Source: Vicugna vicugna
Lineage: Eukaryota
Direction: 5' to 3'
Assembly (NCBI GenBank): GCA_013265495.1
Contig: MU057801.1
Coordinates: 1,481,879 to 1,545,878 of the forward strand
Length of the DNA: 64,000 nt
Positions 1-58,200 of the stretch are shown here, piece after piece; positions within the stretch are counted from its first letter, which is position 1, and every line of letters begins with the position of its first letter. Below the pieces are notes generated by a model that saw only the letters and a list, made by a program, of their open reading frames with translations, made no database searches and was not told where the DNA came from. The position numbers and the translations under genes were made by a program.

Positions 1-55
1 TCAAGTTAACACGAGGTCATTCGGGGGGTTGCAATTTAACACGACAAGTGACTGG

Positions 56-232
56 TTTTCTTTTTATTGAAATATAGTTGATTTACAATGTTGTGCTAAT
101 TTCATGTATATCACAAAGCGATTCAGCCACATGTATGCGTGTATATTCTTTCTCATATTATTTCCTATTAGAGTTCATTACAAGATACTGAATGTGGTTC
201 CCCGTGCTGTACGGTAGGACCTTCTTGTTTAT
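56..232 (-). mobile_element. LINE-1 3' UTR end fragment
   Basis: T-rich start then ATTGAAATATAGTTGATTTACAATGTTGTG...GTAGGACCTT, the reverse complement of the L1 3' end seen at 9600-9800; similar to 52573-52760. Confidence 0.85.
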
Positions 233-719
233 TTGGTCTGTCCTCCTCAGACTTTCTCTCCACTTCTCAGGGGAGCAATCATGGAACGGAAACTTCCAGA
301 CTCTTTCTTGCTTCCTTTCCCCCTCAAAAAGGAGCTAATATGGCTGGTGATGGCTTGCTGTGTTTTTAGGTCCGCACTGTCCACTGACGAGGTTACTGGA
401 CCACAACAGCAAAAGCTAAACAAAACAAGAAAACAAAGCCCAGGCCCCCACCTTCACTTTCTACCTTGTGCTGCTTCCTTCATGAATTGGGAGACGGTGC
501 CAGGCCCCCAGCTCCCACGCCCCGAGCATCCCAGGACAAGCCCACCCCTGCCTCGCACTCTTCTGGGAGCCTGTGCGGGAGACCTGACATCCTGGAGCTG
601 ATGGTGGAACCGCAGGGCGGGGGTGTCCCCAGGTCAGGGCAGCCTGGGGGCCCGTCGTGGCCTCCTATCTAACTAACTGCCACCCTCCTGTCCAACTGCT
701 GCCAAATCTCCTGCTATAT

Positions 720-741
720 TTACTATTATCACTATTATCAC

Positions 742-775
<34 letters not shown>

Positions 776-778
776 TTA
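720..778. repeat. (TAT)n microsatellite with CACTATTAT variants, abutting an L1 tail
   Basis: TACTATTATCACTATTATCACTATTATTATTATT... directly visible. Confidence 0.95.
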
Positions 779-895
779 ATTGAAGTACAGTCAGTTACAA
801 TGTGTCAATTTCTGGTGTGCAGCACACTGTCCCAGTCGTGCATATACAGACATATATTTGTTTTCATATTCTTTTTTCATTAAAGGTTACAGCTA
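775..895 (-). mobile_element. LINE-1 extreme 3' end, heavily 5'-truncated
   Basis: TTGAAGTACAGTCAGTTACAATGTGTCAATTTCTGG...TTCATTAAAGGTTA; highly similar to 2812-2975. Confidence 0.8.
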
Positions 896-2755: not shown

Positions 2756-2811
2756 TAATCACCTTCCTTCAGGTGGGCACAGGGCTTGTTTTCACATTTT
2801 GCTACAAATCA

Positions 2812-2975
2812 CTTTTTTTTCTGAAGTATAGCCAGTTACAGTGTGTCAATTTCTGGGGTAGAGCAACATGTCTGGGTCACGCATATACATACATGTATTC
2901 ATTTTCGTATTCTTTTTCATTAAAGGTTATTGTAAGATATTGACTATAGTTCCCTGTGCAGTGCAGAAGAAATAT
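2812..2975 (-). mobile_element. LINE-1 extreme 3' end
   Basis: poly-T then GAAGTATAGCCAGTTACAGTGTGTCAATTTCTGG...TATAGTTCCCTGTGC; same subfamily as 775-895. Confidence 0.85.
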
Positions 2976-7815: not shown

Positions 7816-7964
7816 GGCTCACTGGCCCCCTTTGAGGATCTAAATCCACCTGTGTTTGCAACTTCACAGGAGAGTGATTCAGAAGACTTTGGGACTTACT
7901 CCTTCAAGTAGCTTGATTTTAGGGTTCAAACGTAGAAATGAGTGGAAAGCATTCATAAAACAGC

Positions 7965-8970: not shown

Positions 8971-9800
8971 GGTATCACCTAACACCGGTCAGAATGGCCA
9001 CCATCAAAACATCTACGAATAATAAATGCTGGCAATGGTGTGGAGAAAAGGGAGCCCTCCTGCACTGCTGGTGGGAATGTAAACTGGTGCAGCCACTATG
9101 GAGGACAGTATGGAGATTCCGTAAAAGATTAAAAATAGACTTACCGTGTGATCCAGCAATCCCACTCCTGGACATATATCCAGAGGGAACCTTAATTAAA
9201 AAATATACATGCACCCCAATATTCATAGCAGCACTGTTTACAACAGCCAAGACATGGAAACAACTTAAGTGTCAATCAACAGATGACTGGGTAAAGAAGA
9301 TGCGGTATATTTATGTATACACAATGGAATATTACTCAGCCATAGAAAAGAATGAAATAATGACATTTGCAGCAACATAAATGGAAATAAGAGATGATCA
9401 TACTAGGTGAAGTAAGGCAGACAGAGAAAGACAAATATTATATGATACCACTTCTATGTAGAAGCTAAAAAAAATACAAATGAAGAAGTTATTTATAAAA
9501 CAGAAACAGACTCACCGTCAGAAAACTAACTTATTGTTACCAAAGGGGAAAGGGTGGGGGAGGATAAACTAGGAGTTTGGGGTTTACAGATATACACCAC
9601 TATACATAAAATAGTTAAGCAACAAGGATTTGCTGTAGAGCACAGGGAACTATATTCAATATCTTGTAATAACCTATGATAGAACAGAATCTGAAAAGGA
9701 ATATATATATATATATATATATGTGTATATATGTCTGAATCACCTTGCTGTCCATGTGGAACTAACACGATATTGTAAACTGACTGTAGTTCAGATTTTG
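8971..9800 (+). mobile_element. 5'-truncated LINE-1 (ORF2 C-terminus plus 3' UTR) with target-site duplication
   Basis: ORF 8994-9380 has the L1 ORF2p Cys-rich C-terminus ([41 protein letters not shown]). TSD AAAGAGCAGGA (8960-8970) / AAAGTGCAGGA (9801-9811). TTAAAA endonuclease-type site at 8957-8962. Confidence 0.97.
9701..9731. repeat. (TA)n microsatellite within the L1 3' UTR
   Basis: ATATATATATATATATATATATGTGTATATA. Confidence 0.9.
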
Positions 9801-10409
9801 AAAGTGCAGGACGAGGCCTACACTAGGACAGAGAGTGTTTCCCGTGCCTGCTGGCCAGCTCTTTCCTTCGGACACACTTGTTTGCATTTCCTTTGTGGCA
9901 GAAAGTGCGCACTGTGGGGGCAGCTGACGTCCAGCTTCAGGGCGGGTGCTCTGCCATCACTGGCTACATTATCTTCTGGTCAGGACTCCTCGGCCGCTGG
10001 AATGTGACCTTCTGACCGCTGGCTGATCGGGTCAGTGCAATCGAGCATTAGATCCTCTTTTGATGATCCCAGATGGACAGGACCAGCTTGATAGCTGTCC
10101 TGTGATCTTCTAGGTCAACCTTTGCTGCTTCAGGTGGGTGACTCCACCACAAAATCCTTTGGAGGAGACAGTGAAAGGCGGGCACCGCAGACATGATCCG
10201 GGAAAGACACACAGTAAGCGCTGCATTTTGTTGATAACATCTCAAAAGTATTCAAATGCAGTATCATTATAAAATGGGCATGTTTAAAACTCAGCTGATC
10301 ATTTTAAAAATCAGTTTTTTAAAGAAAGATCATTACTGTTCATATTTCTATAATAACAAACATTTTTCACATGTTGGAAAAGTGCTTTAATGAGTTTCTC
10401 TGGACTGAG

Positions 10410-35279: not shown

Positions 35280-36070
35280 CGCTCTCCGGATCCTCAGCGG
35301 CGTCTGGCCTCCTGCCAGACCCGTCAGAGAACGAAGGGATGCGCCTCGACGGCCGCGGGGCCCTCCGCTTACCGGGAGGCGTGAGGCCGGGAAGCAGAGT
35401 CAACACCGTCGCCTGTGAAAGGCCCTTGAACGCGCGATCAGCCCCCCGGGCTGCCCGCCGCGGGCCCGGACCACGCCCTCGCCGCTCCCGGTCCCGAGGC
35501 TTTTCAGCCCCCCCCGCGGCACCCCCAGATGTTTGCCGTTTAGCCGTTTATTCGTGTCTCCTCGCTAAGCCGATGCGCGTCGCTGTCTCCCGCAGACTCT
35601 GCGTGTGGCTGCCGCGGGCTCCTCGCGCTTTCCGCTCGGCGGCAGGGGTGGGACCCGCCTGGCCGCCCTCGGCCGCCGCGGTGCTCGTGTCCGGGCGCGC
35701 CGCCCTCCCGGGCGCCTCGGCGGGGTTCGCCGGCGGGAGGTGCCGAGAGGCGGGGTCCCCGGACGCAGGGTTTGTAGGTCCAGCGGCCACGGCGTTTTAT
35801 CCTCCCTCCACTCCCTCCGCAGTCCAGGCCCCGGGTGTCTGCTTTCTGCTGAGAGGCTGCCTCCCCCAGGCTGGGCACCGCCCACGTCCCCCGCACCCAC
35901 CCTTCTCTCTCCCCCGCGGCCCCTTCGCACCTGAGCGGCTTCCTGCTGGTCCCACCTCTGCCAGGTCTCCCGCGACCCGCCATCACACGTCTGCTCAGGC
36001 CTTGACTCCCCTGGAACAAACGCACGTTTTCTGCTCGGCCTCCGCCCCCAGGGCTCTCCCCGACGCGAGC
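35280..36070. promoter_or_regulatory. orphan CpG island
   Basis: Very dense CpG and GC, with a GGGCGG-type box; no recognisable exon. Confidence 0.65.
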
Positions 36071-36679
36071 TGATTCTGTGTCTGAGTGCTCGTCTTGGGC
36101 GCTGTCACCTTTTTGCCCCCAAACCTTCAGAGACTCCCCAGTGCCCTCCGGGCTGGCGTCCCAGACCCTCCACAAAACACCCTGGTCTCCCGTTCCAGCC
36201 CCAGCTCCTCGCCGCGCTTCAGCCGGACTCGGACACTGCTTGGTGCCAACACACGGGACTGCCCGTTTTTAGGAAGCCAGGGGGAGCCCAAGAAAAGGCG
36301 GGGAAGGCGGACGAACCATCTTGAGTTTTCTTCTTCAGCTGATCCAGTTAGAAATCACTGCTCTGCTTGCTCACGCGTTGTTTCGGTTTCTCTAAACGGG
36401 AGGGCTGTTCGGACGGAGGGAAAGTGGCTGGTTTCCCTGGGGTCGTGTCCTGGGGCGGGACTTCTCCCTCGCTCTGCTGGCTTCGTCCGGCCGACTCAGG
36501 CTGCCCTCCTGACCGGGTCTTCTGAATCTCAGGCCCACCTTCAGCCGCAGTTTGAAGCTTGAGGGCCTCTATCATTCAGGATGGAGGGTCTCTCTCTGGA
36601 CGTTGCTGTAGGTGCGGACACATGCAGATTCTTCAGACGCTCATGGCACAGGATCCGTGACACAACATGCAGACACGTG

Positions 36680-39450: not shown

Positions 39451-39779
39451 ATACAGGTGGGGCGCTCCTAAGGTCTTCCACTGAGGGCAGTGAGTCCAGA
39501 AGGAGCAGTTTTAGGGGGAAGAGTCAGGACCTGGATGTGACACGGGGGTAAACACTGCCTCCTGGCTCGGAGACAGATGGGGCTCCTGGGGACACAGCAG
39601 GCGGCCCTCCGGAGGCTCCAGGGAAAGCTGACCGGTGAGCGGGCTTCCAGGGCGACCAGCGGGCGCGCTGGGTGAGGGCAGGGGGGCAGGCGGAGACACG
39701 GTTCGGGGGTCAGGGAGTTTGGGTGGAAGAAGAGAAGTGATGTGTGGGGACGGGGAGGAGGAGCTCTGGGCACCAGGGG

Positions 39780-40430
39780 TTACAGGGGTCTGGTGAGGGT
39801 CCCACCTGGGCTGCGAGCCGGCAGCGCAGGCGCAGGATGCGGATGGGTCCCGCCGGCCACACGGCCCCTCGGACGCTTGTCCCCGGAGTCTTGGGTGTGT
39901 TGGTGGCTTCTCGGAGGGAGTAATCTACAGAGCAAGGTTCTCGGAGGCTCCAGGATGGACCCTGGAGTCCTACCGCAGGTCGGAATCGCTGACGTGCGGG
40001 GGCTGGAGTCCCGGGGGGGGGGGCCCCGCTTTGAGGCCGCCGCCGGTGCGCCCCGGGGACAGGGCCGGCGGGGCCTCCGGGGTCTGGGGTGCTCCCCCCA
40101 GGGGCTGCCCCGGAGCCAGGCCGGGAGGAAGGGAGGCTTCTGCGCCTCGGCCGTTTCCCCCGTGGGACTGGCACGGTCGTTCCCTCTGCAGGGACGCGGC
40201 GTCACAGCTGCCGCACACGCACATCTGGGCAGAGCTGCTGGCAGAAGCGCTCTGGGCACCGTCTGCCCCACCGTGAGCCCCTCCGTGGCCGAGGGAACCC
40301 AGTTTGGAAACCACCACTTGTGCGAACCTGCCACCCACCCCGAGCCGCGCTGCCGTCAGACAGTCACAGGTCAGACTCCCTGGTTGGGGGCAGCAGGGAC
40401 CGGGTCCTTGCGTGGCGCTCGGTCTGGGTT
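39780..40430. promoter_or_regulatory. orphan CpG-rich patch
   Basis: High GC/CpG, G-run GGGGGGGGGGG at about 40013-40023, TGACGT half-CRE at about 39990. Confidence 0.55.
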
Positions 40431-43984: not shown

Positions 43985-44645
43985 AAGTTACCTATAGTAA
44001 CGTTCACTCCTTTAGTGTAGTTTTGTGAGTTTTGACAAATGCATCAGCATGTAGCCGTCACCACAACCCACGTGTAGAGTAATTCTAGCATCCTCCAAAA
44101 TTCCCTCGCTGTGTCTCACCTCTTTTTTTTTTTTTTAAATGATGGAGGCCCTGGAGGTTGAACCAGGACCTCGCGCATGCTGAGCCCGTGTTCCACCACC
44201 GAGCCACCCACCTCCGCCCTCCCCTCGTGGTAGACGGTGCTTTCCTCCACGCCAGCCCCTGGCAACTACTGGTGTGTTCTCTGTCCCTTCACTTTAACTT
44301 CTTCCAAAATGGAAAATGGAAACATAATGGAATCATTCACTGTGTAGACTTTTGGGTCTGGCTTCCCTGATGCGCTGGAAGCCGCGGTTGTTGGCCACGC
44401 GCTTCCAGGCGGCAGGCCCGCTCTCTCTACTGCTGAGTTGCAGCCTGTGGCGCACACGGGGCACGCAGCTTATCAGGTGCCCACTGATAAGGGCGACCGG
44501 GTTGGTGTCAGTTTGGGCAGTTACGAATAATGCTGCCGTCACCGCTGGCTTGTGGGCTTTGGGTGAACGTAAGTCTTACTTGCACACGGGCAGACTCAGG
44601 AGAGGGCCGGCTGGGTCCCACAGGGAGTGCGCGCTCGGCTCTGAA
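43985..44645 (-). mobile_element. L1MB/L1ME-like 3' fragment, interrupted by a SINE
   Basis: GAGTTTTGACAAATGCAT...CAGCCCCTGGCAACTACTG...AATGGAATCAT...TTTTGGGTCTGGCTTC...GAATAATGCTGC. Confidence 0.8.
44123..44215 (-). mobile_element. tRNA-derived SINE, Vic-1-like short form
   Basis: poly-T + ATGGAGGCCCTGGAGGTTGAACCAGGACCTCGCGCATGCTGAGCCCGTGTTCCACCACCGAGC; antisense B-box-like GGTTCAA. Confidence 0.8.
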
Positions 44646-46829
44646 GGGTGATCGTATTCTGAATGCATTGATTTGTGGTCCTGGTTTGCTCTATGATTTT
44701 GGATCATGGAACCTTTGGAAGAAGGTTCTGGATTTAATTTTGCACATAGAGCTGTTTACTTCTGTCTCCCACAGAAGGAGATGAGTGGGTCCTGAACATC
44801 ACTGCATTCATCAAGGTTTTAACGACAAAATCGCCCTCTGCAGACAGGTGGCACGTGTCTAGGGACTTGCTTGGTGAAGCTTCTGCAGAAGAGTTACGTG
44901 GAAGCAAAGTTGCCTCTTAAGAAACCACCATGAAGGCATGGAGGTCAGCTGCAAAGCTTCCGTCTCAGAATGGTTTTCTTGTTCTTTCATGTTTTGCATT
45001 CAGTGTCCTACAGGGAGTCCTGCAGTGACTTGACACACGACAAATGCCGTGTTCTAAGCAGAGCCAGTCCGTTGTCATGAGGGCTTCTGCCAGACGTAGA
45101 ACACTAGCGCCGAGGGACACGAGGTGAACACTGGTGCGGGGCGCCGTGACGCGGGCCGCGCTGTGAGCATGGACGGCACTTTCGATGCCAGCACATCATT
45201 AGTTCCCTCGGTTTGCAGCAGACGAGCGGACGCGACGGCCATAGTTTCTCCTGTTTGCATAGCTGCACAGATTTATGGTTTTGAAACAAAATCTATTTCT
45301 CTCCAAATAAGTAAGCAAGGACATTGGGGCAACCAACTTCTCAGAAAAGGAATGTTTTTAATTGGTATAGACATCTCAGAAAAATCAGATGCCAAATAAC
45401 ACACAGGAGCATGGAGTTTGTCTGACAAAAAGGAAATCTCTCACCTGTGTGAGCAGTTTCATAACGTTACAACGCTAGTTTAACAGAGATCCAGAACTTT
45501 CATTTGGGGAAAAAACACTCACATTAGGATTTAAAGAACAGTGAGTCGAATTAAATTTATCAAATTAGCAAACCACTGTGATTTTTCTTCCTTTGAAAGT
45601 GAGGGTTCAGTGATTAGAAAGCAACATAGCTTTTGGTTAAGAATGATATATTTTTGTTCAGATTAACAATAATTAATCTTTAAGGTGTAGGATGATGCGC
45701 CATAGTATTTTTAATCACAACGTGATGCGAAATAATAAAAGTTATCATAATTGGTAACCCAAGCCCGTCTATTCAAAGGGAAGAAACCATTTAGCGCTCT
45801 TAACTGTCAACCAGTCAGAGGTGGTTTCCAAATCAACCTGCAAGGAAGTCTGAGCACCGACACGAAAAATGTCTCTGCTTTCCTGAGGACGTTTATTGCT
45901 GGTAATAGCTCTTTAATAACTGGTAATTTGTGGAATTTAATTTCCAGTAGCGATGCACGAAAGTGGTCTGGAGGCAACAGAACTCTTCTCATTGGTTTCA
46001 GATCTTGAGCAATTGTTTCAAAATGCTCATGTGATGAAACAAAATGCTTTGTATCATGACCTTTCATTTCGGAGGGCCAGCTTCTTCACTCTGGGTTTTT
46101 GGCTGGTATCCAGTGTCAAACAGCAGACAAGTCTGAGAGATGATGTGTCATTCAGAAACCTCTTCCCCGAGCCAAGGAATCTCTCGGTTCCTTACTAAGT
46201 TACTAAAACTTGATGGGCATTTTTGGATTAGTAAAGTGATACATTGTTGATTCTGGAAATTGGTAATTTAAGCTGATTTCTCTGCATAGTCTTCAGCAAA
46301 CCATAAGACGGTTTTTGATAATGTCCAGTTTCATCCAAATACAGATGATGGTTTTATGTGAGTCCACTGTAACCTTAGCACAGAGTCTGCCTGAGCTGTG
46401 GGCTGAGGGGCTGGTTGCACAGAAGTGGGGGTTTCAGGATCATCTAACTGGGACGAGTTCTTGAGGCCTTTTTGCAAATGAGCAAGCAGTTTGCAATTTC
46501 TCTTTTAAAAAGGAAAACAAATGCAAACATATTCTTTTACGTAGACATTGTGTGATTTCAGGTTCCGTAAGCGAGATCTGTGAGAGCTGGGGAATGACTG
46601 CAGCCCCTGGGGATGCAGAAGAAGGTGGTCCCTGGACCACTGTCTGCCTGACCGAGATCAGCTGGTGGGGAGGGGTGGGCGATGCCAATGTCTACGGTTC
46701 AGTTTGAAGTTCCAGGATCCAAGTTTGCCTTTGAGTGATTTATCATTTCTTTTTCAAATATTCCTGTTACTGCCGCACACAGACACACAATTTGTAGTGA
46801 CTTCCTCAGGAGCCTGTGGAAATCTCAGA

Positions 46830-47010
46830 CCGGTGGCCTCACAGCGTGGTTCCAACCTAGCAGGGCAGCATCCCCTGAAATGTGTTAGAAATGCAGATTA
46901 TCCGGCCCCACCCAGACCGGTTCACGCCAAATCTCTGAGGATGGGACCAGAAGTCTGTGTTTTAGGGAGTCCGGGGGATTCAGAGGCATCCTTGAGGGTG
47001 AAGGACTGAC
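46830..47010. mobile_element. MER5A hAT-Charlie element
   Basis: GCAGCATCCCCTGAAATGTGTTAGAAATGCAGATTATCCGGCCCCACCCAGACC...AATCTCTGAGGATGGGACCAGAAGTCTGTGTTTT. Confidence 0.85.
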
Positions 47011-47499
47011 CTTGATAAGCACAGTTAGCTTAGAGATTTTCAGAAAATCTTGAAAGCCCACTCTGCTTTAGGGCAACTGTCAAGAAGCTGGAAGTGGTTA
47101 AGGAATTACTACCCCCAGGGGCAGCCCCCATTCAGTATCTCCCGAGTGAGCATTTAAACGTCCCAGCTCGCTGCCCTCTCCGGGTGGGGTGATTCTGACA
47201 GCGGGTTTGCAGAGCTGCCCCTTGCGGGGCTGAGCTCCAGACCTGGCTTTGCAGCCTGCCCCCTCCCTGCAAGTGCTCCCTCTCTCCCTGCAGGTGGTCC
47301 CTGAACACCAGCCCCGCCCACAACCTGCTCTCAAGTCCTTGCCTCTAGATGCTCCTGGCAGGTCCCAGACTAAGGCGCTCACCTGGGGCAAGTACTTCAT
47401 AAAAACTGATAGACTGAACCTCCCCTACAGTCTTACCTGGGTCAGAGGCCATCATTCCATCTCTGCCACTCCTGAGCGGAAGCAGGAATCTGCCCGGAA

Positions 47500-47757
47500 G
47501 GCAGGGACCAAGGCTCAGAACACAGGCTTTAGAGCCAAATTCTTGTGATAGAGTCTGGCTTTGCCTCTTGCTGGCTGTGCAACTTTGGGTTCATTCCTTA
47601 ACCTCTCTGTGCCTGTTTCCTCATCTGCAAAACAAATGTAATTATAGCACGTACCTCAGAGGGTCCTGAAGGAGCTTTAATGAGTTCAACATGCAAAGTG
47701 TTTCGAACAGCATCTGGCCTGTGGTAAGCATGTAGCAAATGCTGACTATTATTAGTA
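47500..47757 (+). mobile_element. MIR SINE, near full length
   Basis: CTTAACCTCTCTGTGCCTGTTTCCTCATCTGCAAAA...GTACCTCAGAGGG...AAATGCTGACTATTATT. Confidence 0.9.
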
Positions 47758-47989
47758 ATATAGTTGTTTTTTTAATTTGTTGTTTTTTCTTGGCAAGGGA
47801 CTTCAGCACTGTGTCAGTTCGGTTCCTTCCTTTTCTCCTAAGAAGCCCCCCCGACACCCCCTGTCGTTTTCCGACCCCGTCATCTTGCTGGTTTGTCCCG
47901 CCAGGAGGCTTCACACAGCATGAAACCTGAAAAGACACAATTACTGATCTTGCATTTAACAGGAAACACTTTTTAAAAAGGCAGTAAAC

Positions 47990-48180
47990 ACTTACCAGTT
48001 AAGAGCTTTACACAGATTTCCCTAAGGCATCGTGTTGGGGTAGAGGTCCGTCCTTGCTTCTGCCGCTGCTCACTGGGAAAACTGAGGCTTGAAGAGGCGA
48101 AGCCCCTTTCCAGGGCTGCAGAGCCGGGAAGTGCGAGAGGAGAGACTCAGGCTCAGGACCCTCGACCACAGAGCCCGGCC
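47990..48180 (-). mobile_element. MIR fragment
   Basis: GGGAAAACTGAGGCTTGAAGAGGCGAAG, antisense core. Confidence 0.6.
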
Positions 48181-48299
48181 GTCGGCCCCAGCGCCGCGCG
48201 AGCAGGCCTGCTTACTGCTACCTCTGGACGAATGGTCTCTGACATTCTCACGGCTCAGAATGCCTTAGACGGACGGCTCCCTGGGCCCAGCACCAGGCA

Positions 48300-48390
48300 C
48301 GTCTAAGTCTGGAGATCTGGGGGCGCTTCTAACAAGTCCGAGCTGATGCTGTGGTGCTGGTCTGGGGACCCCACTTTGAGAAGCCCTGTC
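48300..48390. mobile_element. MER5A fragment
   Basis: TTCTAACAAG...TGATGCTGTGGTGCTGGTCTGGGGACCCCACTTTGAGAAGCCCTG. Confidence 0.75.
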
Positions 48391-48529
48391 CTGTGTTATA
48401 GCCCAGTTAGAACACGTGAGGAAAAGAAATAAAATCAGAATGGCTTGGGACTACAGCCTCATTTTCTTGATATGCTTGATACATAGGGTGCAAATACCTC
48501 CTTCGGCAATCTTTTTTTTTAAATGATAT

Positions 48530-48770
48530 ATAATAGAAATTAACTTTTCTGTTACATAAAAGAGGTCTAGAAGTAGGCCACGTAGGGCCGGTGTGCTGCC
48601 CTCAACACCAGGGATTAGGCTCCTCCACACAGAAACTTGCTGTTCCACCATCTTCAGCATGTGGCTTCCACTGCATAGCACAGTATGGCTGCTGGACCAG
48701 CAGCCATCGCATCTGCATTCCAGCTGACAGGAAGGAGGAAGGACTGAAGAAGGGCACACATCTTTTAAAT
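48530..48770 (-). mobile_element. MaLR LTR (MLT1J-like) fragment
   Basis: TGTTCCACCATCTTCAGCATGTGGCTTCCA...ATGGCTGCTGGACCAGCAGCCATCGCATCTGCATTCCAG. Confidence 0.75.
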
Positions 48771-50713
48771 TTTCTTTAAAAATTTAATTGCCAAAAAAGC
48801 TCACATCTGTACCATTTAGTAGTGTTAAGTACAGTCACGTTGTTGTACAATGAATCTCAGGAACTTTTGCATCTTCCCCTTTGTCCAACTTTAAGAAATT
48901 ATTACCAAAAAACAAAAAGTGCTAAAGCATATTTTCAACAGCTGCACATGCCAATGACAGTGGGGGATAAGATGTGTGCATTCACACGAAAAGCTGGTTA
49001 GTTAGTTTCTGGCTTCTCTCTCCTTTTTGGCTGTATCTAAATAAATCAGGTGGGTGTCCAGCAAATGACTTTTTGGAAGTACTGGGTCGTTATGGTTATG
49101 AAAAAATGACATGGGGGGGATGCCACTCTTGCAAAGCTCAACTTACTTAGACATCTGTTGTATTGCTTGGATCATTCAAATCCCCAAATAAATTTTTAAA
49201 AATTATGTAGAATTGGGCTTTTGTGCCAAAAACAATGACATTAACATTTTTTGTTTTCTCAGTGGAACCTTATATCAATACTTTTTATGTACAACCATTT
49301 AACATATAAAATGTTGCAGAAGCAATATTGCTGAAGTCAAAGTGGGGGAGACGGGAAGATGGAGGCTACACCCCATCATTTAGCCTCCTCCTCAGGGGAG
49401 AAGCCCTAGGGTATAAAGCAGATTAAATTCCTCCCCTCCAAGAACAACAGAAATGTCTTAAACTCTGAGGTCCTTAAATATTTATATGACATCACTAATA
49501 GCTCATTTTAAAATTTTCAGTTATTCCCTGAGTCACATGTGCCTTGCCTTTTTTGAGTCCTAAGGGGCGTCCTTGGACTCTATGCAAATAAGCCAGTGTC
49601 ACGTTATGGAATAAACACTGGTGTGACGCTGAGCCTTTCTGCCTAACCCCGGATCTTCCGCTAACTGACTTTGTCACTTGGGGAGCCAGTTAATCTCTCA
49701 TTTGTAGGATGAGCGGCTGAACTAACCGATCTGTTAGGGTTTGTGCCTTGGAGCCCTGACCTTCTGTGGTTCTTTTTAATGCCTGGATACAATGACCTTG
49801 CCGCTGATGGAAAGATTATCTTGGGAAATGTTGGCCAAAGCTAAACCCTTTCCCCCCAGACCTCTGGTCTCGTTTCCTCCTGCAGGGCAGAGAGACAACC
49901 TGGCCGAGTTCCAGCTCAGGTAACTACATTCTTCCCACCACGATTTTCCTTGCGTTGTCCATCGGCTACGCTGTGCCTCTCCATTCCTCCTCCGTCGCTT
50001 GTCCCTTGATATTGCTGTCTGCTGTCTCGTAGAGCAGATCTCAAGCAGTGGCTTCATTTGGGGGGTTTTCTTGTGTTTTAGGAAACGTAACTCCATCAGC
50101 CAGGGACATGGGACATTGGCATGTCAGCCTTTCTAAATGTCCTGAAGGGTTGGGCTCAGGACTGTCATGTTGGTCTATTTTTAGTAGTGACATTATGGGA
50201 AATTACCTTAAAAGTCTAATTGGAAAGGACACAGACAACAATGGCTCCTATTTACCCAAACAGTTCTAATGGGAAACCACACTGATGCTAACAGCTAGTG
50301 GTGGTAATGGCTTACTGTGTATCCTATACCCTTGTACGTGCTCCGTACGTATCTGCTCCTTGCAGACGAGGACACTGAGGCACGGAGGGGCTGCATCTCT
50401 TGCCTGCAGTTCACGCAGTTCCTCGAGCATCTTGTGGGAGAGCGGTTATGGGGCATCCATGGACTAGACCATTAAAAAAAGTGAGGTCAGTGCAAAGACA
50501 GCCGATGTGGCAAACTCTCCCAGATGTACAATTAAGCGGAAAGGGTGAGATGTGACGTCAAAAGGAATCCGCGAGTGGCGTCACACTAACCATCTAAACT
50601 TTGCTAAAGACGAAGCGGTATACTTGGTTTAACAAAGCAATGGCATTTGATAAAGCACCCCAGAAATAACGCGGTTTGGGGGGAAACGTTGTTCATTTGA
50701 CAGACCGCATATC

Positions 50714-50920
50714 GGAATTTGCAGATACTGACAACTACATGTGAAGTAGCTGAACGACCAGGTCCTTCTGCACAGCACAGGGAGCTGTAGCCAATGCCCT
50801 GCGACAGCCCATCGTGGAAAAGAACATGAAAAGGAACGTGTGTGTGTGTGTAACTGAAGCACTGTGCTGCGCACCAGCGATTACACAACATTGTAACCGA
50901 CTACACTTCAATTTGAAAAC
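50714..50920 (+). mobile_element. LINE-1 3' end, strongly GC-shifted
   Basis: Colinear with 9585-9795 and with the reverse complement of 52573-52780 (CACAGCACAGGGA...ACAACATTGTAA...CACTTCAATT). Confidence 0.9.
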
Positions 50921-50959
50921 AAGGTAAGACACAAAATAGTATGGCTGTATGCATTTCTT

Positions 50960-51100
50960 TTTCTGGTTTGGAAGGAAACCCCAGGCAACATTAGCAGTGG
51001 TTACCTTTGGGGTAAATGTTGATTTTATTTAAAATTATTTTTACCTTCCGCAATATTTGAATTTTTTTTCACCATGTGTATGATACGTCATTTAAATTTT
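50960..51100 (+). mobile_element. L1ME-like 3' fragment
   Basis: TTAGCAGTGGTTACCTTTGGGG...TATTTGAATTTTTTTTCACCATGTGTATG. Confidence 0.55.
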
Positions 51101-52559
51101 AAAAAAACTGTCTACAAGGGTTACTTGGATGGTGAGATTATGAATAAACTTTGCATTCTTCTATGTCCCTATTTCAGAAACATAATAAATGAGATTCTAT
51201 CAATAATGGGGAATTTGGCCTACAATCAGCCTGAGACTCTCCAGGCTGAGAGCAGAAGAGCTTTATTCTTCTGGGCTTGGTGGCAGGATGCTGGGGTGAG
51301 TCTGGGCTGGCTGGCGGTGGGGGTGGATGCCCGAGACCCTCGAAGTCTGAAGCAGAGCAGGGACATGGGTCAGATGTCGTTCATTTCATGGCGGGTCCCA
51401 TCAAAACAGAAGCCACAAACATACCACAGCCTCCAAACTCCTCTTCTCTCTTCTTTGGGGTTTCGAATACATTTTTCTTTTAAAAAAAAATGTGGTGAGA
51501 ATTTAAAGTCAAGCTCACCATTGAACAAGAGCATCTAGGAGATGTGAGCGTTGCCCTAACGTGGCCCCTCCACACTTGCCCCCCTGGGGGATCTGGCTGG
51601 GACACGTGTTATTCTCCACCCTCACCTCTCTGGTCCAGAACTACTTCAGATTCTGCTACCAGCGTGTTCGTGCAGCAAAAGGCCCCGGAAAACAGCCCGG
51701 CCACTTCATGGGAACGGCCAGTGGTGAATGTCAGTACACAGAGCGGCTGGTTATCTCTCTGGGGGTTAAGTTACTGCATTCAGTGTGGGCTTGTGAAGAC
51801 AATGGTGGGGCCCGTCACGCCGGAGTGATCCTTTTACCTGCGCCATCTAAAGTGACATTGGAATGAAGGGGCACTTGAGAGCTATCAGTTTCCTAGGTAA
51901 GTTCTGCAAACAAGCTCACAGATCTTCTGCTTCGTGACTGTGCCCCACCTGGCCGAAGGAGGCCGGCCCTCCTTGTGACTCCTGGGGACAGATGAAAGGC
52001 GGCTGCGCCAGGCGGAATTCCACTGTCGCAGTGTTGACTCGAGGTCGCCCAGCGCCACCCCCGTAAACCTGGGCTGTCAGGGGACTGCTTTTCCTGCCAA
52101 GCGCCACATCCTGAAAGCATCAACCACAATTAAAACGTATTACAAAAAGCGCTGGAAAGGCAGGCGGGGTTTCCTGCCTGTGTCCGCGAATAAATTCACC
52201 TCCCACCTGCCAGCACCTGGGGCTTTCGCAACACTGTGCTCTGTCATTTTTCTTTCCAAGATACCACACCTCCCATTTCTCACTGCAAGGAACTGTGGTG
52301 ACAGACGCTTAAGAATTTTATTTTCTTTTGAAAGGAACTCAGATTACAGCAGGGCTGCACCTAGAAAGGTGTCACAGGAGAGCAGACGGGGAGGGAGCAG
52401 AGAGGGAGGTTCCAATGCGGTTGTGTCTGCAGCCTCAGAGAAGGAGGGCTGAGCTGAGTCTGAGGCCGAAATCTGTTCCGGGGACAAGACCTGCCTCAGT
52501 CCCTCAGCTCCGGGACATCAGCTCCACTCTTCTAAAAAAATACTTCTGATTTTTTCATT

Positions 52560-52885
52560 TTAATTTTTGGAATTTTAAAATTGAGGTATAGTTGACTTAC
52601 AATGTTGTATTAATTTCTGGGGTACAGCATAGTGATTCAGTCACACACACACACACACACACATTCCTTTCCATACTCTTTTTCATTATAGGTCACTACA
52701 GGATATTGAATACAGTTCCCTGTGCTGTGCAGTAGGACCTTGTTGTTCATCTATTTTATATATAGTAGCTGTATCCACAAATCTCACACTGCCAATTCAT
52801 CCCTCCCCACCCCCTTTCCCCCATGCTAACCATGTCTATCTATTCTCTGTGTCTCTGAGATGGTAACTGTAAGTCTGTTCTCTGA
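52560..52885 (-). mobile_element. LINE-1 3' UTR end, with internal (CA)n
   Basis: TTGAGGTATAGTTGACTTACAATGTTG...GTACAGCATAGTGATTCAG...CAGTTCCCTGTGCTGTGCAGTAGGACCTTGTTG. Confidence 0.93.
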
Positions 52886-53733
52886 GTCTCTGTCTCTGTG
52901 TCTCTGTGTATCTCTGTCTCTGTCTCTGTGTCTCTGTGTCTTTGTTTCTGTGTCTCTGTCTCTGTCTCTATTTCTATGTCTCTGTCTCTCTGTCTCTTTT
53001 TCTGTCTTCATCTCTGTGTCTGTCTCTGTCTCTGTGTTTCTGTCTCTGTCTCTGTCTCTGTGTCTGTATCTCTGTCTCTGTGTCTCTGTCTCTGTGTCTG
53101 TGTTTCTGTCTCTATCTCTGTATCTCTGTCTCTGTCTCTGTGTCTCTGTCTCTGTCTCTATTTCTATGTCTCTGTCTCTCTGTCTCTTTTTCTGTCTTCA
53201 TCTCTGTGTCTCTGTCTCTGTCTCTGTGTTTCTATCTCTGTCTCTGTGTCTGTATCTCTGTCTCTGTCTCTCTGTCTCTGTGTCTCTGTCTCTGTGTCTG
53301 TGTTTCTGTCTCTATCTCTGTATCTCTGTCTCTGTCTCTGTGTCTCTGTGTCTCTGTCTCTGTCTCTGTGTCTCTATCTCTGTCTCTGTCTCTGTGTCTC
53401 TGTCTCTGTCTCTCTGTCTCTATCTCTGTGTCTCTGTTCTCTCTGTATCTCTGTCTCTGTCTCTGTGTTTCTGTCTCTGTCTGTGTCTCTGTGTCTGTGT
53501 CTTTGTGTCTGTGTCTCTGTTTCTGTGTTTCTATCTCTGTCTCTGTCTCTGTTTCTGTATCTCTGTCTCTGTCTCTGTGTCTCTGTCTCTGTGTCTCTGT
53601 CTCTGTGTTTCTGTCTCTGTGTCTCTGTCTCTGTGTCTCTGTCTCTTTTTCTGTCTCCATCTCTGTGTCTCTGTCTCTGTGTCTCTCTATCTCTGTGTCT
53701 CTGTCTCTGTCTCTGTGTCTGTGACTGTCTGCT
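52880..53733. repeat. about 850 bp degenerate (TCTCTG/TCTGTG)n satellite
   Basis: Directly visible; source of the S/L/C/V-rich and R/E/T/D-rich ORFs. Confidence 0.98.
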
Positions 53734-53794
53734 CTTTAGATGGCAGTCTCACTCTCACCAATATTCTCAAAACACTGGAAACTTCCGTGTGTGA

Positions 53795-53875
53795 GGGTCG
53801 TTTGTTCACATCAACCAGTATGTGTTTATTGATGACTTACCACCTCCAAGCCTGGGGAGCTGGAGAACAGGGCGT
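53795..53875 (-). mobile_element. L2 3' end fragment
   Basis: GTTTGTTCACATCAACC...GTTTATTGATGACTTACC...GCTGGAGAACA. Confidence 0.45.
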
Positions 53876-54199
53876 CCCGGCCACCAGATGCCAGCCCACC
53901 AGTGGGGCTTTCAGACCTTCGCAACAGCTGCACCGACCCGGTGATGCCAGCCTCCTATCTGGACCACCACACGCGACATAAAATCTGAGCCACCTGGCAG
54001 GATTCTGGTCCCCACCCTCCCTTCCCACCTGCTTGAGCGCCCTCCCTCGGCTCTCAGCTCTGTCCACCACATATAAATGCTCCTCCACCATCCTGCCTTG
54101 ACCTGGCGGGGTCCTTTCTCTGGAATACCTCTCTGCTTTATCCACAGCACCTCTGTTCACTGAAGATCCAGCTCGCGTGCCGTCTTGTCTGGGGAGCCT

Positions 54200-54488
54200 T
54201 CTCTCAGTCCCACTGGGGAGCTTCTGGGAGACTGTGCAGAACAGACCTCAGATCTGCACCCAAACGAGAGGGGGAGGAAGATGGGCATTTACCCTCCAGC
54301 TACCCGCTGCCATCAAGTGAGGACCCTCCGGGGCAGTGAGTCCTCCAGTGCCGGGTCTGCCCTAGACCCTGCTGGCCAAAGAAAGCCCTCAGTGGAGGGT
54401 CCCATGAGCTTTCAGTCCAAATCAGGCTGCACGCTTAGGACTGGTGGGTGCTGAGGGGACATGCTGGTCGCCAAAGGCGTCTGCTATA
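54200..54488 (-). mobile_element. ERVL LTR (LTR33-like)
   Basis: CTCAGTCCCACTGGGGAGCTTCTGGGAGACTGTGCAGAACAGACCTCAGA...GGCCAAAGAAAGCCCTCAG...GCGTCTGCTATA. Confidence 0.8.
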
Positions 54489-54714
54489 AACTTCTTCACC
54501 CGCAAAATCAGAGAATCCTAGAGAAAGAACAGATCATAGACACCAGGTACCCAATTAAGATCACGTACTAAAAATATAAGTCGTATCTAGAAAGATGTCT
54601 TCCAGAGGGAGCTCCTGGACGAGGCAATGATAATAATGCAGAAATCAGAGAAACACTCTCACAGTTGATAAAGCTTTTATATATATATTTCCTTTAAAAA
54701 ATAATTTGAGTTTC

Positions 54715-54850
54715 CCAAGAATCTCGTGAGCTATTCAGAGCCGCTATTACCCCATTTTTCAGATCAGAATAAGGCACAAAGTGTCAGCGGGTGAGCAGCA
54801 GAGTCAGACCCAGTCACCGGTCCTCCTGCGTCTGGGACTGCTGCTCTGGA
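54715..54850 (-). mobile_element. MIR fragment
   Basis: GCTATTACCCCATTTTTCAGATCAGAATAAGGCACA. Confidence 0.55.
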
Positions 54851-56819
54851 CTTAACAGAGGATTAGAAATGTTCTGCCCACTTCAGGGTCAGGGCCTGGG
54901 GAAGTCAGTTCACGGCTCAAATATTCCTTACCCCATTCCCGGCAACAGAGCCAAACCAAGAACAGGACTGCTCATTCTAAGATAAATTCAGTCTTTTTAT
55001 CTCTAGATGGTTTTGAGAAGTATTGCAAAAACGAGAAAACACTCCAGGATGGCCAGACAAATTCCCTCTTAATTCAGTTTCGTATGTTTCCAAAATCAGT
55101 CCCAATGTTAAAATAGGCAATGAAGTTTGTGTACTTCAATCTAGAAATCTGCAGAATTATAAATATAGCTGTGTAAGTATTAAGATTAATGACACAAGAA
55201 CAAGCATCATGGACTTTGGGGAGGCTCTGTCTTAAACACCCAGCATTAACATTTTTAAATGAAACATGGAGTATTAAAAAAAAACAGATTGCACTTTAGC
55301 ACACTGTGGTAGCTGAGTTGGCGTCTAGCCACAGATTTATCAGGAAGGGGAAAGCACCCTGGGAGCAGAGGTGGGAAGCCCCCGATGCACTCGGAGGGAG
55401 AGGTGGGGGTGGGCGGGGTGGGAGGGCGTGGCGGCCCCTTTGAGCATTAATGAACGTCCGCTGGTATGCTGTTGAAAAATCGGTTCTCTGTGATGTTTCT
55501 CCAGAATCAGTGTCCTCTTCCTGTTACATTCTTTTCTGCTTTTCAAAAGTTCTTTCCCCCAGTAATTTCTATTAAGAATCCCAAATATTCCAGTGATTAT
55601 TTGAAGCTGTATGCTTTTCATTACTCCTGATACCATTTCTGCATTTGTATTCAGTCCATGTTAACCCAGTGCGGGAGTTCCAGCCCGGCCGAGTCTTCGC
55701 GCCTGCTGCCTGGGATGCTCGCGTCAGACAGCAAGCAGCCATCCCAGCTGAGTGGTCACGCCTTTCCGCCTGCGAAGAAACATCCCCGAAGTGCGAAGCA
55801 CTATTTCAAAATATAACAAACATCAGGGTGACCAGGAGAGCCGGTTACAACACAGACAGGGCTGGACAGCACCTCCAGAAGCTCCGGCTCAGCAGGACTG
55901 GCCGAGACCCAGACAGCTGCACACCTGACAGCTTCCCAGGATAAATGGTGCCAGTGCCGGACCGCAGGCTGAGGCGCCCTGGGGCGGGGCAAGGGTTACA
56001 CTGGGGCTTCCCGTCTCATGGGAGATGGCGACTCCTTAGCATCAGAGGGATTTTCAGGAGTAACTGTCCGAGAGGCAGATTGAGTGCGCGAGTTCAGGAG
56101 TGGGAAGTATGCCCGACAGATCTCTGCCTGATACACAGCATCGGTGTCACTGCAAGCCGGCCACGGTGTCTCGGAATCCTGTCCACATATCCTGTACTTA
56201 GTGACGTGGACACTTAGTGCAAATACTCCTTGGACTAGTATTTAAAGCCAGGAGAGGTGGTGATGGACGGACACCCAGAAGCTCTGGACTGAGACCTGGT
56301 GGTGCCTCCCCTCCCCGTTTTTTCTGCTGTGTGACCTCAAGCAGGTCCTTGCCCTCTCGTGGCTTTGGCTCCTCCCTGGTCAAGCGGTGATTACACGAGC
56401 AGCCCCGATCGACGCCCCGGCTGCAGTGGCCGTCCACGCAGCAGCAAGGCCAGGTCTGTAAGGGTGAGGGGTGAAGCGGGAGCGGCCTGTCCCTGGAGCG
56501 GAGCCGGGCTCAGCCCGCACCGCCGGCCCCGCGCCCCCACCCCGGTGGACTGCATATGGCGTCTCACCTTGTTCTCTTTCAAGATGAACTCTCATTCCCC
56601 GGGAAAAATTTCTCAGCCTTAAAGCCACAACTTCAAAAATGTGGTGGGAACCACATTTAAAAGGTCTGGCAAATGGTTGGTTGATTTCATTTTTTTTTAA
56701 ACTGCACTTTTAAAACAAACCCCAAATAGAGATGAAAGCCAAGAATTAAAATATACGTACAAAATAGAAAACATTAATATTCTCAAGTACAGCGAATTGA
56801 ATAATCATCATAAGGAAAC

Positions 56820-58200
56820 AATAAAACGCGCAGTGACTCAGACCAGATGATCACCGCCCGTCTCCAGGATGCTGGCACATGTGGTCCGTGTGGAGACCGG
56901 GGTCCAGCCAGGCGGGTGCTGGCCTCGCCCGCGCAGTCACTCCCCGAAGCCCGCCTCCGACAAGTACCCGTCCCGTAACCAAGCTTCAGCCTCCTCGCTG
57001 GCAGGGCGGGGGCCGGGGGGAGACTGAAGGAAGGCTGTTAAATTTTACAATCGGACGCCCTGCGTTACCGCGTCTCTCGGTCCACAGCGCCTTGAGCTCT
57101 AGTCTGCTTGCCGACCGTCCTCACAGCCCGTGCTCCCCGCGTGGTGACTCTTACTCCGTGGAGGCAGCCGAGGAGCTGAGGGCCGAGGCATCTGCGGGGA
57201 GTCCAGACAGGAGCTGGGGCACCGGAGGAGGGGAGAGTCCCCGGCACCCCTTCCTCGCCCTCGCTCCCCAGCCCAGCCTCCCGCCCCCCTGTCCCCAGCC
57301 CTTCAGCAGTTTCACTGACGAAGGTGGGTCTTCCCACACCTCGACTTGGAAGAACTTACCAAGAGAAAGGAGGAGCGGTAAAGAGAAATGTTTCTGCGGT
57401 GGCGTCCCCTGTCCCACCCCATGCCATCGACCTTAGACCCCAAACCAGAGTGCCCCGGGGCGGTGGGCACGTGGCTTTATGTCCCAGGAGCAGCGCTGGG
57501 GGTCGCGCCCGCCGCCCCGCCCCGTTCCCGAAGGCCCGGGCCGGCCTGCCTCCTGCCTTCCTCCCCCTGTGCGGCCGGAGACGGAAGGCGGCCCTCGCCG
57601 GGCTCAGACCTGCCCTGAGCTCCCCCGCCTCGCAGCGCGGACGCCGACCTCACCGCCCGCCGCGGATTCCTGTGCCGCCTCATCGTGTATCACAGGGCCG
57701 AGCCGCAGCTTCTAGAACTGGCTCTGGATGCATGGAAGCCGTTTTTCGTACATCCACTTTCAATACTGCTTCCCATCTGCGTGACACGGACGCGGGGAGA
57801 GCCAGCGCATACTTCCCGGCCCGGGGGCGGCGCCGGCGCAGCGGGGACGGCCGGGGACGGCAGCTGGCTGGTGCTGCCGGAGCTGTCGTCCCCGCCCCAG
57901 CAGCCTTTCTGGGTGAGAGATTCTTCAAAGCACACGCACTCGAGGCCAGGCTGTTTCTCTTCGGTTTTCTAAGCTCCTCCCCAAGATGGACGGGTCACGC
58001 GTGCTCACGCAGCTTCCGGGAGAACATCGGACGGAATGCGGGCTGCGGTTTGAATCCCCCTCCGGGCAGACTGGGCTGTCATTTCAGCAGGGATTTATGT
58101 GTTTAGAATACGAGATGCCGTACAGTTCCGAGCTGTCAAGCCCCGGGAGGGAGGCTCACACAGAAAGAAGCACCGTCCGTGCGGCTGGCCACTGGAAATA
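56820..58200. promoter_or_regulatory. orphan CpG island (largest in the window)
   Basis: Dense CpG at 57470-57900; GC boxes CCCGCC/GGGCGG; no recognisable exon. Confidence 0.6.

What the first reader, a model, noticed from the sequence alone, without database searches (positions are those of the whole stretch)
50714..50920. L1 tail rewritten almost entirely A/T to G/C compared with sister copies in the same window
Seen: I hand-aligned about 105 bp of this copy to the reverse complement of the L1 tail at about 52660-52770. I count roughly 22 A/T to G/C differences, about 4 in the reverse direction and 1 neutral (e.g. TATATATAAAATAGA vs TACATGTGAAGTAGC). The copy at 9596-9700 generally keeps the AT-rich state. 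Known: neutral mammalian decay (CpG deamination) runs towards A/T, while GC-biased gene conversion at recombination hotspots runs towards G/C. Inference: this is a local fossil of strong gBGC.
Basis: partly seen in the sequence, partly recalled or inferred. Interest (0 to 1): 0.7.

Follow-up and report, generated by a model that had tools for sequence, protein, structure and literature searches.

The report
GC-shifted L1 tail in CpG-rich patch
One short fragment of a common L1 repeat has had about a quarter of its A/T bases replaced by G/C since it inserted, the footprint expected of GC-biased gene conversion at a recombination hotspot; it is a clear but ordinary example of a known process.

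Summary

- **Polarised counts.** I compared the copy at 50712-50926 with the majority state of 33 genomic copies chosen without reference to it. It has 48 weak-to-strong, 2 strong-to-weak and 4 GC-neutral changes over 215 sites. Thirteen copies from random genome regions pool to 176:155 (Fisher p=2.7e-10).
- **Equilibrium GC (GC*).** It is 0.89 here, 0.86 with CpG sites masked, and 0.30 genome-wide.
- **Not a subfamily.** Two GC-rich 30-mers, allowing up to 3 mismatches, occur once each in the 2.03 Gb genome. The AT-rich version occurs 22,330 times.
- **Not RNA editing.** A>G (24 of 99) and T>C (17 of 60) are equally frequent.
- **Flank.** A MIR-like fragment upstream at 50326-50463 is also biased, 21:5.
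- **CpG.** The 601-bp patch 50326-50926 has CpG o/e 0.79, and new CpGs have not decayed (9 seen, 10.2 expected).
- **Region.** The sister copy is itself biased (22:2) but CpG-depleted. The whole window leans weak-to-strong (113:36).

Best reading: gBGC at a probably germline-hypomethylated, CpG-island-like patch. This is a new instance of a known kind. Recombination and methylation were not measured.

The parts
50712..50926 (+). 5'-truncated 3' tail of an abundant L1-type interspersed repeat, shifted from GC 0.26 (majority proxy) to 0.47
   Evidence: nhmmer E=3.3e-50, profile 497-713. 48 W>S: 2 S>W: 4 neutral over 215 sites. GC* 0.89. 9 CpGs against 0 in the proxy.
50326..50463 (+). Fragment of an old MIR-like SINE family in the upstream flank, also W>S-biased
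   Evidence: Iterated nhmmer E=5.1e-15. 21 W>S: 5 S>W over 80 sites, against 228:172 pooled in 17 non-window copies. Fisher p=0.022, GC* 0.72 against 0.43.
50326..50926 (.). CpG-rich, CpG-island-like patch that holds both repeat fragments
   Evidence: 601 bp, GC 0.486, 28 CpGs, o/e 0.79. It is flanked by 50090-50335 (0 CpGs in 246 bp) and 50927-51150 (o/e 0.36). The random genome has o/e 0.24.
50553..50560 (.). Single TGACGTCA palindrome (reads as a CRE-type site from recall; function untested)
   Evidence: It is the only occurrence in the 64-kb window.
52561..52901 (-). Sister L1-type 3' end in inverted orientation, W>S-biased but CpG-depleted
   Evidence: nhmmer E=1.2e-72. 22 W>S: 2 S>W. GC* 0.81. 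0 CpGs against 3.9 expected, P=0.016.
9098..9801 (+). Longer L1-type 3' end used as an in-window comparator
   Evidence: nhmmer E=2.8e-146. Tail part 23 W>S: 8 S>W, GC* 0.50.
47..235 (-). L1-type tail, in-window comparator
   Evidence: nhmmer E=4.9e-29. 33:14, GC* 0.45. CpGs 5 against 5.4 expected.
2811..2969 (-). L1-type tail, in-window comparator
   Evidence: nhmmer E=1.2e-26. 22:7, GC* 0.50.
771..889 (-). L1-type tail, in-window comparator
   Evidence: nhmmer E=2e-18. 13:5, GC* 0.44.

Best explanation
A roughly 215-bp, 5'-truncated L1-type tail inserted beside an old MIR-like fragment. After insertion, the roughly 0.6-kb patch 50326-50926 came under a strong fixation bias favouring G/C over A/T alleles. 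This is GC-biased gene conversion, the GC-favouring repair of heteroduplex mismatches at a meiotic recombination hotspot. The patch was probably also unmethylated in the germline, so newly made CpGs were not lost to deamination. The result is an AT-rich repeat being driven towards CpG-island composition (GC 0.26 to 0.47, equilibrium GC about 0.9). It sits within a 64-kb region that as a whole has a milder W>S bias. Shown here: the directional, post-insertion, locus-specific, strand-symmetric substitution pattern and the lack of CpG decay. Inferred: recombination as the cause, and hypomethylation.
For: (1) W>S 48, S>W 2, neutral 4 over 215 sites, against a majority proxy from 33 copies not chosen by likeness to this copy. 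Other reference sets give 41:3, 47:3 and 52:3. (2) 13 tails from 200 kb of arbitrarily chosen genome pool to 176:155, GC* 0.30; this copy has GC* 0.89 (bootstrap 0.77-1.0) and 0.86 with CpGs masked. (3) GC-neutral changes are not elevated (4 of 215 against 83 of 2824 in random copies), so the copy is neither old nor of another subfamily. Scaling random-copy rates by that ratio predicts about 9 W>S and about 7 S>W (my arithmetic). W>S is therefore raised about 5-6 fold and S>W lowered about 3-4 fold, which a fixation bias predicts and a mere rise in mutation does not. (4) A>G 24 of 99 and T>C 17 of 60 are symmetric. (5) The GC-rich 30-mers are unique in the genome. (6) The MIR-like flank is biased 21:5, p=0.022, so the effect belongs to the locus and not to the L1 RNA. 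(7) CpG: 9 observed against 10.2 expected with no decay. Random copies show 8 against 25.9, and the sister 0 against 3.9. Patch o/e is 0.79. (8) The size (at least 0.6 kb) fits published gBGC tracts, median 788 bp (PMC3744432, passages read). GC* peaks at hypomethylated CpG-rich PRDM9-independent hotspots are reported in 39 of 52 mammals (PMC11161765, abstract, section 8 and passages).
Against: No recombination, polymorphism or methylation data were available. The ancestral state is a majority proxy, not an outgroup. One counted W>S site (50713) sits where the other copies split TG/CA, so it is more likely a retained ancestral CpG. The CpG at 50898 is of the same kind but was left out of the count for lack of a majority. 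Four W>S sites lie in a (TG)n run where slippage makes them non-independent. The MIR-like result rests on 26 changes and a noisy proxy. GC drops to about 0.3 right after the L1 3' end, an oddly sharp edge for a conversion tract, although that flank cannot be polarised. The fold changes of W>S and S>W do not fit a single constant conversion strength.
Confidence: 0.65

Rival explanations
1. The patch is a germline-unmethylated regulatory element, such as an unannotated promoter or enhancer. Its composition shifted through a locally altered mutation spectrum (no CpG deamination, transcription- or repair-associated A:T>G:C mutation), with no role for recombination.
For: CpG o/e is 0.79 with no loss of new CpGs. 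There is a single TGACGTCA site at 50553. The sister copy 1.7 kb away is W>S-biased yet CpG-depleted, so CpG protection is a separate, more local property.
Against: Masking CpGs leaves 34 W>S: 2 S>W, GC* 0.86, and absence of methylation alone cannot produce that. S>W is below the age-scaled expectation (2 against about 7), which points to fixation and not mutation. There is no strand asymmetry of the kind transcription-coupled processes give. The A>G context preference (5' T: 24 of 64) is only about 2-fold, against 1.3-1.8-fold in control copies. [quoted passage not shown]
Confidence: 0.15
2. Natural selection for G/C or CpG content, for example to build or keep an unmethylated regulatory element exapted from the repeat.
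For: CpG-island-like composition, and position in a GC- and CpG-rich window with several strong CpG islands.
Against: The 48 changes are spread evenly over the whole fragment (site list). CpG gain is no more than random placement of the same substitutions predicts (9 against 10.2). Adjacent double changes are not in excess (9 against 13.2). No ORF, Rfam family or tRNA lies there.
Confidence: 0.07
3. The L1 RNA was hypermutated before insertion (A-to-I editing or error-prone reverse transcription), so the copy arrived already GC-rich.
For: 41 of the 48 W>S changes are transitions. An inverted sister copy lies 1.6 kb away.
Against: A>G (0.24 per A) and T>C (0.28 per T) are equal on one strand, whereas editing of the inserted RNA would give A>G only. 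The non-L1 MIR-like flank is also biased. The retained ancestral CpGs and the CpG-rich unique flank are not explained.
Confidence: 0.02
4. The G/C states mark a separate L1 subfamily, or were copied in by ectopic conversion from a GC-rich paralogue.
For: None was found. The overlap of W>S columns with the sister is marginal (10 against 6.3 expected, P=0.057).
Against: The GC-rich 30-mers are unique with up to 3 mismatches in 2.03 Gb, against 22,330 hits for the AT-rich form. The 39 non-self hits are 73-82% identical (40 of 4025 candidates were scored). The flanks are unique.
Confidence: 0.01
5. Assembly or sequencing artefact.
For: None.
Against: 19 runs under 5 organism labels from 7 studies hold 82-86% of the sampled words of 48500-52500. 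The pattern is directional and continuous with its flank.
Confidence: 0.01

Closest known systems
gBGC tracts / W>S-biased clustered substitutions (phastBias tracts in human and chimpanzee; Capra et al. 2013, PMC3744432, abstract and passages read)
   Same: A sub-kb to kb cluster of substitutions that is overwhelmingly weak-to-strong. It lies in a GC-rich region where such tracts cluster. Its size (at least 0.6 kb) is close to the published median of 788 bp.
   Different: Here the changes are polarised from repeat copies within one genome and not from a species alignment. It is a single locus with no link to a recombination map. The density of change (about 30% of W sites) is much higher than on the short human or chimpanzee branches.
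PRDM9-independent ('default') recombination hotspots at hypomethylated, CpG-rich loci (Joseph et al. 2024, PMC11161765, abstract, section 8 and passages read)
   Same: A narrow peak of equilibrium GC content (the same GC* estimator) coincides with CpG-rich DNA that does not lose CpGs. Such hotspots are reported active in 39 of 52 mammals examined.
   Different: Methylation, DSBs and promoter activity are unmeasured here. GC is 0.486, just under the usual island threshold. The substrate is L1- and MIR-derived DNA, not a known promoter. No camelid name occurs in the main text of that paper (0 hits for three terms), and its supplements were not read.
GC gain at canid transcription start sites (PMC11323403, abstract and passages read)
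   Same: GC content rises towards a high equilibrium where recombination takes place at CpG-rich sites.
   Different: There it is a genome-wide average around annotated TSSs in a lineage that lacks PRDM9.
Runaway GC evolution in gerbils (PMC7403616, search listing and start of abstract only); Fxy and HAR1 (recalled, not looked up)
   Same: Extreme W>S substitution attributed to gBGC.
   Different: Those cases involve genes or large regions, with consequences for function. This is a short non-coding repeat fragment.

Membership tests
gBGC tract (W>S-biased clustered substitutions) | Polarised W>S substitutions greatly exceed S>W relative to the genomic background | tested here: met
   48:2 against 176:155 in 13 random-locus copies, p=2.7e-10. 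GC* 0.89 against 0.30.
gBGC tract (W>S-biased clustered substitutions) | The bias is not an artefact of CpG hypermutability | tested here: met
   With CpGs masked: 34 W>S: 2 S>W, GC* 0.86.
gBGC tract (W>S-biased clustered substitutions) | Fixation bias and not just more mutation: S>W lowered, GC-neutral changes not raised | tested here: inconclusive
   Neutral changes 4 of 215 against 83 of 2824. S>W is 2 against about 7 expected after age scaling (my arithmetic). The direction is right but the counts are small.
gBGC tract (W>S-biased clustered substitutions) | Strand-symmetric | tested here: met
   A>G 24 of 99, T>C 17 of 60.
gBGC tract (W>S-biased clustered substitutions) | Acts on the locus, so it extends into neighbouring unrelated DNA | tested here: met
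   MIR-like fragment at 50326-50463: 21:5 against 228:172, p=0.022. This rests on a modest count and a noisy proxy. The downstream flank could not be polarised.
gBGC tract (W>S-biased clustered substitutions) | Coincides with past or present high recombination (LD map, DSB map, pedigree) | not testable with these tools
   No such data are held.
gBGC tract (W>S-biased clustered substitutions) | W>S alleles segregate at higher derived frequency; branch-specific W>S excess in a species alignment | not testable with these tools
No mammalian alignments are held.
L1 (LINE-1) 3' end | Homology to a highly repeated interspersed family with variable 5' truncation and an A-rich 3' end | tested here: met
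   nhmmer E=3.3e-50. 22,330 genomic hits to a tail 30-mer. Copies start at many different points. A-rich ends are visible in the alignment.
L1 (LINE-1) 3' end | Continuity with an ORF2 / reverse-transcriptase coding region | tested here: inconclusive
   Pfam found no RT or L1 domain in 28 ORFs upstream of tails. The copies sampled are truncated or decayed. The name 'L1' rests on my recall of the tail sequence.
CpG island (length at least 200 bp, GC at least 0.5, o/e at least 0.6; criteria recalled) | Length and CpG o/e | tested here: met
   601 bp, o/e 0.79.
CpG island (length at least 200 bp, GC at least 0.5, o/e at least 0.6; criteria recalled) | GC at least 0.5 | tested here: not met
   GC 0.486 for 50326-50926 and 0.495 for 50336-50905. 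I therefore call it 'island-like' and not an island.
CpG island (length at least 200 bp, GC at least 0.5, o/e at least 0.6; criteria recalled) | Unmethylated in the germline | not testable with these tools
   Inferred only, from CpG retention.
Distinct GC-rich L1 subfamily | Other genomic copies share the G/C states | tested here: not met
   Searches found one hit each (self) with up to 3 mismatches; the best non-self hit is 82% identical.
ADAR-edited / hypermutated retrocopy | A>G on one strand only, confined to the retrotransposed RNA | tested here: not met
   T>C is as frequent as A>G, and the flank is also biased.

The most novel reading that the evidence does not exclude
A CpG-island-like, germline-unmethylated 'default' (PRDM9-independent) recombination hotspot has arisen on DNA that was once an AT-rich L1 tail and a MIR-like fragment. 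If so, this is a CpG island caught midway through being built from repeat DNA by gBGC (GC 0.26 to 0.47, heading for about 0.9). The neighbouring inverted L1 copy records the same conversion bias without the protection from methylation.
Probability: 0.35. Interest if true: 0.45.

Novelty: new member of a known kind. Interest (0 to 1): 0.3.

Why it matters
The practical value is modest. Because the starting sequence of a repeat copy is known, this fragment works as a small natural experiment. It gives per-site W>S and S>W rates, an equilibrium GC of about 0.9, and a separate read-out of CpG protection, all from one genome without any outgroup.

- It marks a candidate recombination hotspot and hypomethylated element in a species for which I found no recombination map. 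That claim rests on one literature search for 'biased gene conversion' plus 'camel', whose 10 listed titles (of 84 papers holding both terms) included no study of camelids.
- It is a caution for dating repeats by divergence. The copy is 25% diverged in total but only 1.9% in GC-neutral changes.
- It is also a caution for scans that read clustered substitutions as selection.

It does not open a new question.

Tried and rejected
- **Related runs.** I did nothing further on that route, so branch assignment and 'active or fossil' stay open.
- **The look-up of sequencing runs.** 19 holders, but none were laid, so this is not a base-level check.
- **Genome allowance.** I fetched 20 short tails instead. 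The unbiased random control set therefore stays at 13 copies. These are 13 of the 25 nhmmer hits in 200 kb; the other 12 did not span the tail and were dropped.
- **Upstream L1 homology.** By eye 50400-50711 looked L1-like, but neither blastn nor the profile supports it.
- **Flanks.** 50200-50711 has only three weak partial matches in the genome and 50927-51400 has none, so neither can be polarised. In 44000-57000 only the two L1 tails have 3 or more matches in my 264-kb local set.
- **Single-sequence nhmmer** for the MIR-like piece found only itself. Seeding with a short motif and iterating worked.
- **Mutational signature.** The 5'-T preference is about 2-fold, against 1.3-1.8-fold in controls, so it is not distinctive.
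- **CpG-targeted change.** CpG gain and adjacent double changes are not in excess.
- **Conversion between the two inverted copies.** Shared W>S columns number 10 against 6.3 expected, P=0.057; not convincing.
- **Gene context.** There were 0 Pfam hits in the window's 40 longest ORFs (40 of 106 candidates). No Rfam family or tRNA lies in 48000-54000. No convincing ORF lies over the patch.
- **L1 ORF2 link.** No RT domain was found.
- **Earlier findings of this scan.** None.
- **Failed look-up.** One paper look-up failed on term syntax and was not repeated.

Full report
**What is there.** A profile built from 8 genomic copies places the 3' tail of an abundant interspersed repeat at 50712-50926 (+). 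The match has E=3.3e-50 and covers profile positions 497-713 only. Sequence upstream of 50712 is not detectably part of the repeat. I recognise the family as L1 from recall. Its behaviour fits a LINE 3' end: there are 22,330 genomic matches to a tail 30-mer, copies are truncated at many different 5' points, and the 3' ends are A-rich. Pfam, however, found no reverse-transcriptase domain in 28 upstream ORFs. Other tails in the window lie at 52561-52901 (-), 9098-9801 (+), 47-235 (-), 2811-2969 (-) and 771-889 (-).

**Check of the observation.** Over 50714-50920 (206 aligned sites) the differences are 37, 11 and 2.

**Polarisation.** I used the per-column majority of genomic copies as a stand-in for the inserted sequence. 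Columns with less than half occupancy or no 60% majority were dropped. No majority sequence was printed. There were three reference sets:
- 19 copies retrieved with the GC-rich copy itself as query, a set biased towards it.
- 20 copies retrieved with the sister as query.
- 13 tails found in 200 kb of arbitrarily chosen genome. These are 13 of 25 profile hits; 12 did not span the tail and were dropped.

Against the 33 independent copies, the copy has 48 W>S, 2 S>W, 3 W<>W and 1 S<>S over 215 sites. The other reference sets give 41:3, 47:3 and 52:3. Within 50714-50926 the counts are 42 W>S, 1 S>W and 2 neutral (site list). The 13 random copies, each tested leave-one-out, pool to 176:155. The five other copies in the window pool to 113:36. 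Fisher tests give 2.7e-10 (this copy against random), 2e-6 (other window copies against random) and 8e-4 (this copy against other window copies).

Equilibrium GC, computed as in Joseph et al. 2024 (formula seen), is as follows:

| Copy or set | GC* |
|---|---|
| 50712-50926 | 0.89 (bootstrap 0.77-1.0); 0.86 with CpGs masked |
| Sister, 52561-52901 | 0.81 |
| Other four window copies | 0.44-0.50 |
| Random copies | 0.30 |

GC at the aligned sites rose from 0.26 in the proxy to 0.47.

**Tests of the alternatives.**
- *Subfamily.* Two 30-mers carrying many derived states occur once each (self) in the genome with up to 3 mismatches allowed. The AT-rich equivalent occurs 22,330 times. The 39 non-self hits to the region are 73-82% identical (40 of 4025 candidates were scored). 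The derived bases are carried on average by 8% of the independent copies, and 14 of the 48 by none.
- *Age or a wrong reference.* GC-neutral changes are 4 of 215, against 83 of 2824 in random copies. The copy is therefore not unusually old and belongs to the same subfamily as the reference. Scaling the random rates (0.086 per W site, 0.198 per S site) by that ratio predicts about 9 W>S and about 7 S>W. W>S is thus about 5-6 fold up and S>W about 3-4 fold down. This is my arithmetic, on small counts.
- *RNA editing before insertion.* A>G is 24 of 99 and T>C is 17 of 60, which is symmetric.
- *Locus or element.* Iterated profile searching recovered an old MIR-like family (name from recall), with a member at 50326-50463 (E=5.1e-15). 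That member shows 21 W>S: 5 S>W over 80 sites, the highest W>S rate of the 20 copies tabulated. Four of the 24 hits had fewer than 60 usable sites and were dropped. The 17 non-window copies pool to 228:172 (p=0.022). The bias therefore belongs to the place and not to the L1.
- *Mutational signature.* The preference for a 5' T is about 2-fold, against 1.3-1.8-fold in controls, so it is not distinctive.
- *Exchange with the inverted sister.* Shared W>S columns number 10 against 6.3 expected, P=0.057.

**CpG behaviour.**
- The proxy has no CpG at the aligned sites, while the copy has 9.
- Placing the same substitutions at random predicts 10.2, so nothing has been lost. Adjacent double changes are not in excess either (9 against 13.2).
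- Random copies hold 8 CpGs against 25.9 expected, and the sister holds 0 against 3.9 (P=0.016).
- Two of the nine CpGs (50713 and 50898) sit where other copies split between TG and CA. They are probably ancestral CpGs that this copy alone kept.
- The patch 50326-50926 (601 bp) has GC 0.486, 28 CpGs and o/e 0.79. It lies between a 246-bp stretch with no CpG and a flank with o/e 0.36.
- For comparison, 200 kb of random genome has GC 0.384 and o/e 0.24, and the whole window has 0.511 and 0.50.

Two things are therefore superimposed. One is a W>S fixation bias that is regional, strong at both inverted L1 copies and extreme at 50.3-50.9 kb. The other is a more local absence of CpG decay.

**Mechanism.** The best fit is GC-biased gene conversion at a recombination hotspot sited on a germline-unmethylated, CpG-island-like patch. 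Published work matches this picture:
- gBGC tracts in apes have a median length of 788 bp and cluster in GC-rich regions (PMC3744432).
- PRDM9-independent hotspots at hypomethylated CpG-rich loci show GC* peaks in 39 of 52 mammals (PMC11161765).
- GC rises at canid TSSs and decays where recombination is directed elsewhere (PMC11323403).

The substitution pattern is shown here. Recombination and hypomethylation are inferred. 'Fossil' is doubtful, because undecayed CpGs imply present protection or recent activity.

**What stays open.** The branch on which the changes occurred, any polymorphism and any link to recombination are untested. The downstream flank cannot be polarised, and its low GC (0.32) makes the 3' edge look sharp. 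Gene context is unknown. Supplements of the papers cited were not read.

**Verdict.** This is a real and statistically strong weak-to-strong tract of extreme local size. It is a new instance of a well-described process and not a new kind of thing. Interest 0.3.

Noticed in passing
window 1-64000: The whole window is unusually GC- and CpG-rich for this genome: GC 0.511 and CpG o/e 0.50, against 0.384 and 0.24 in 200 kb of arbitrary genome. Strong CpG islands lie at about 7200-7950, 35250-36600, 39600-40350 and 57000-58200. All five other L1-type tails in it lean W>S (113:36 pooled, against 176:155 genome-wide).
   Followed up: partly
window 52874-53730: An array of about 850 bp made of TCTGTC/TCTCTG-type units (periods 6-20, up to 134 copies, 71-79% matches). 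It is almost pure pyrimidine on the + strand and directly abuts the sister L1 copy. Whether such a tract relates to the local conversion bias was not examined.
   Followed up: no
window 47-235 (-): This L1-type tail also shows no CpG depletion (5 CpGs against 5.4 expected) in a stretch with CpG o/e 0.69, although its W>S:S>W ratio is only 33:14. CpG-retaining patches may be common in this window.
   Followed up: partly
window 49860-49925: A short stretch framed by a polypyrimidine-AG and a GT looks like a small exon by eye. It was not verified.
   Followed up: no
genome-wide; e.g. L003, L005, L006, L008, L015, L019, and L028, L034, L037, L038: Many copies of the repeat begin at about the same profile position (about 481-500) as the window copy. 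This suggests either a preferred 5' truncation point or an independently amplified tail unit of about 215 bp.
   Followed up: no
L032:700-975 (+) (G000:C4561:3000700-3000975): An ORF in one of the randomly chosen control regions carries a helix-loop-helix domain (Pfam HLH, E=1.4e-10). It is unrelated to the finding.
   Followed up: no
window 50560-50672: Part of the CpG-rich upstream flank has one 77% match (113 bp) and a 52-bp 85% match elsewhere in the genome. This hints at another old low-copy repeat. It was not identified.
   Followed up: no
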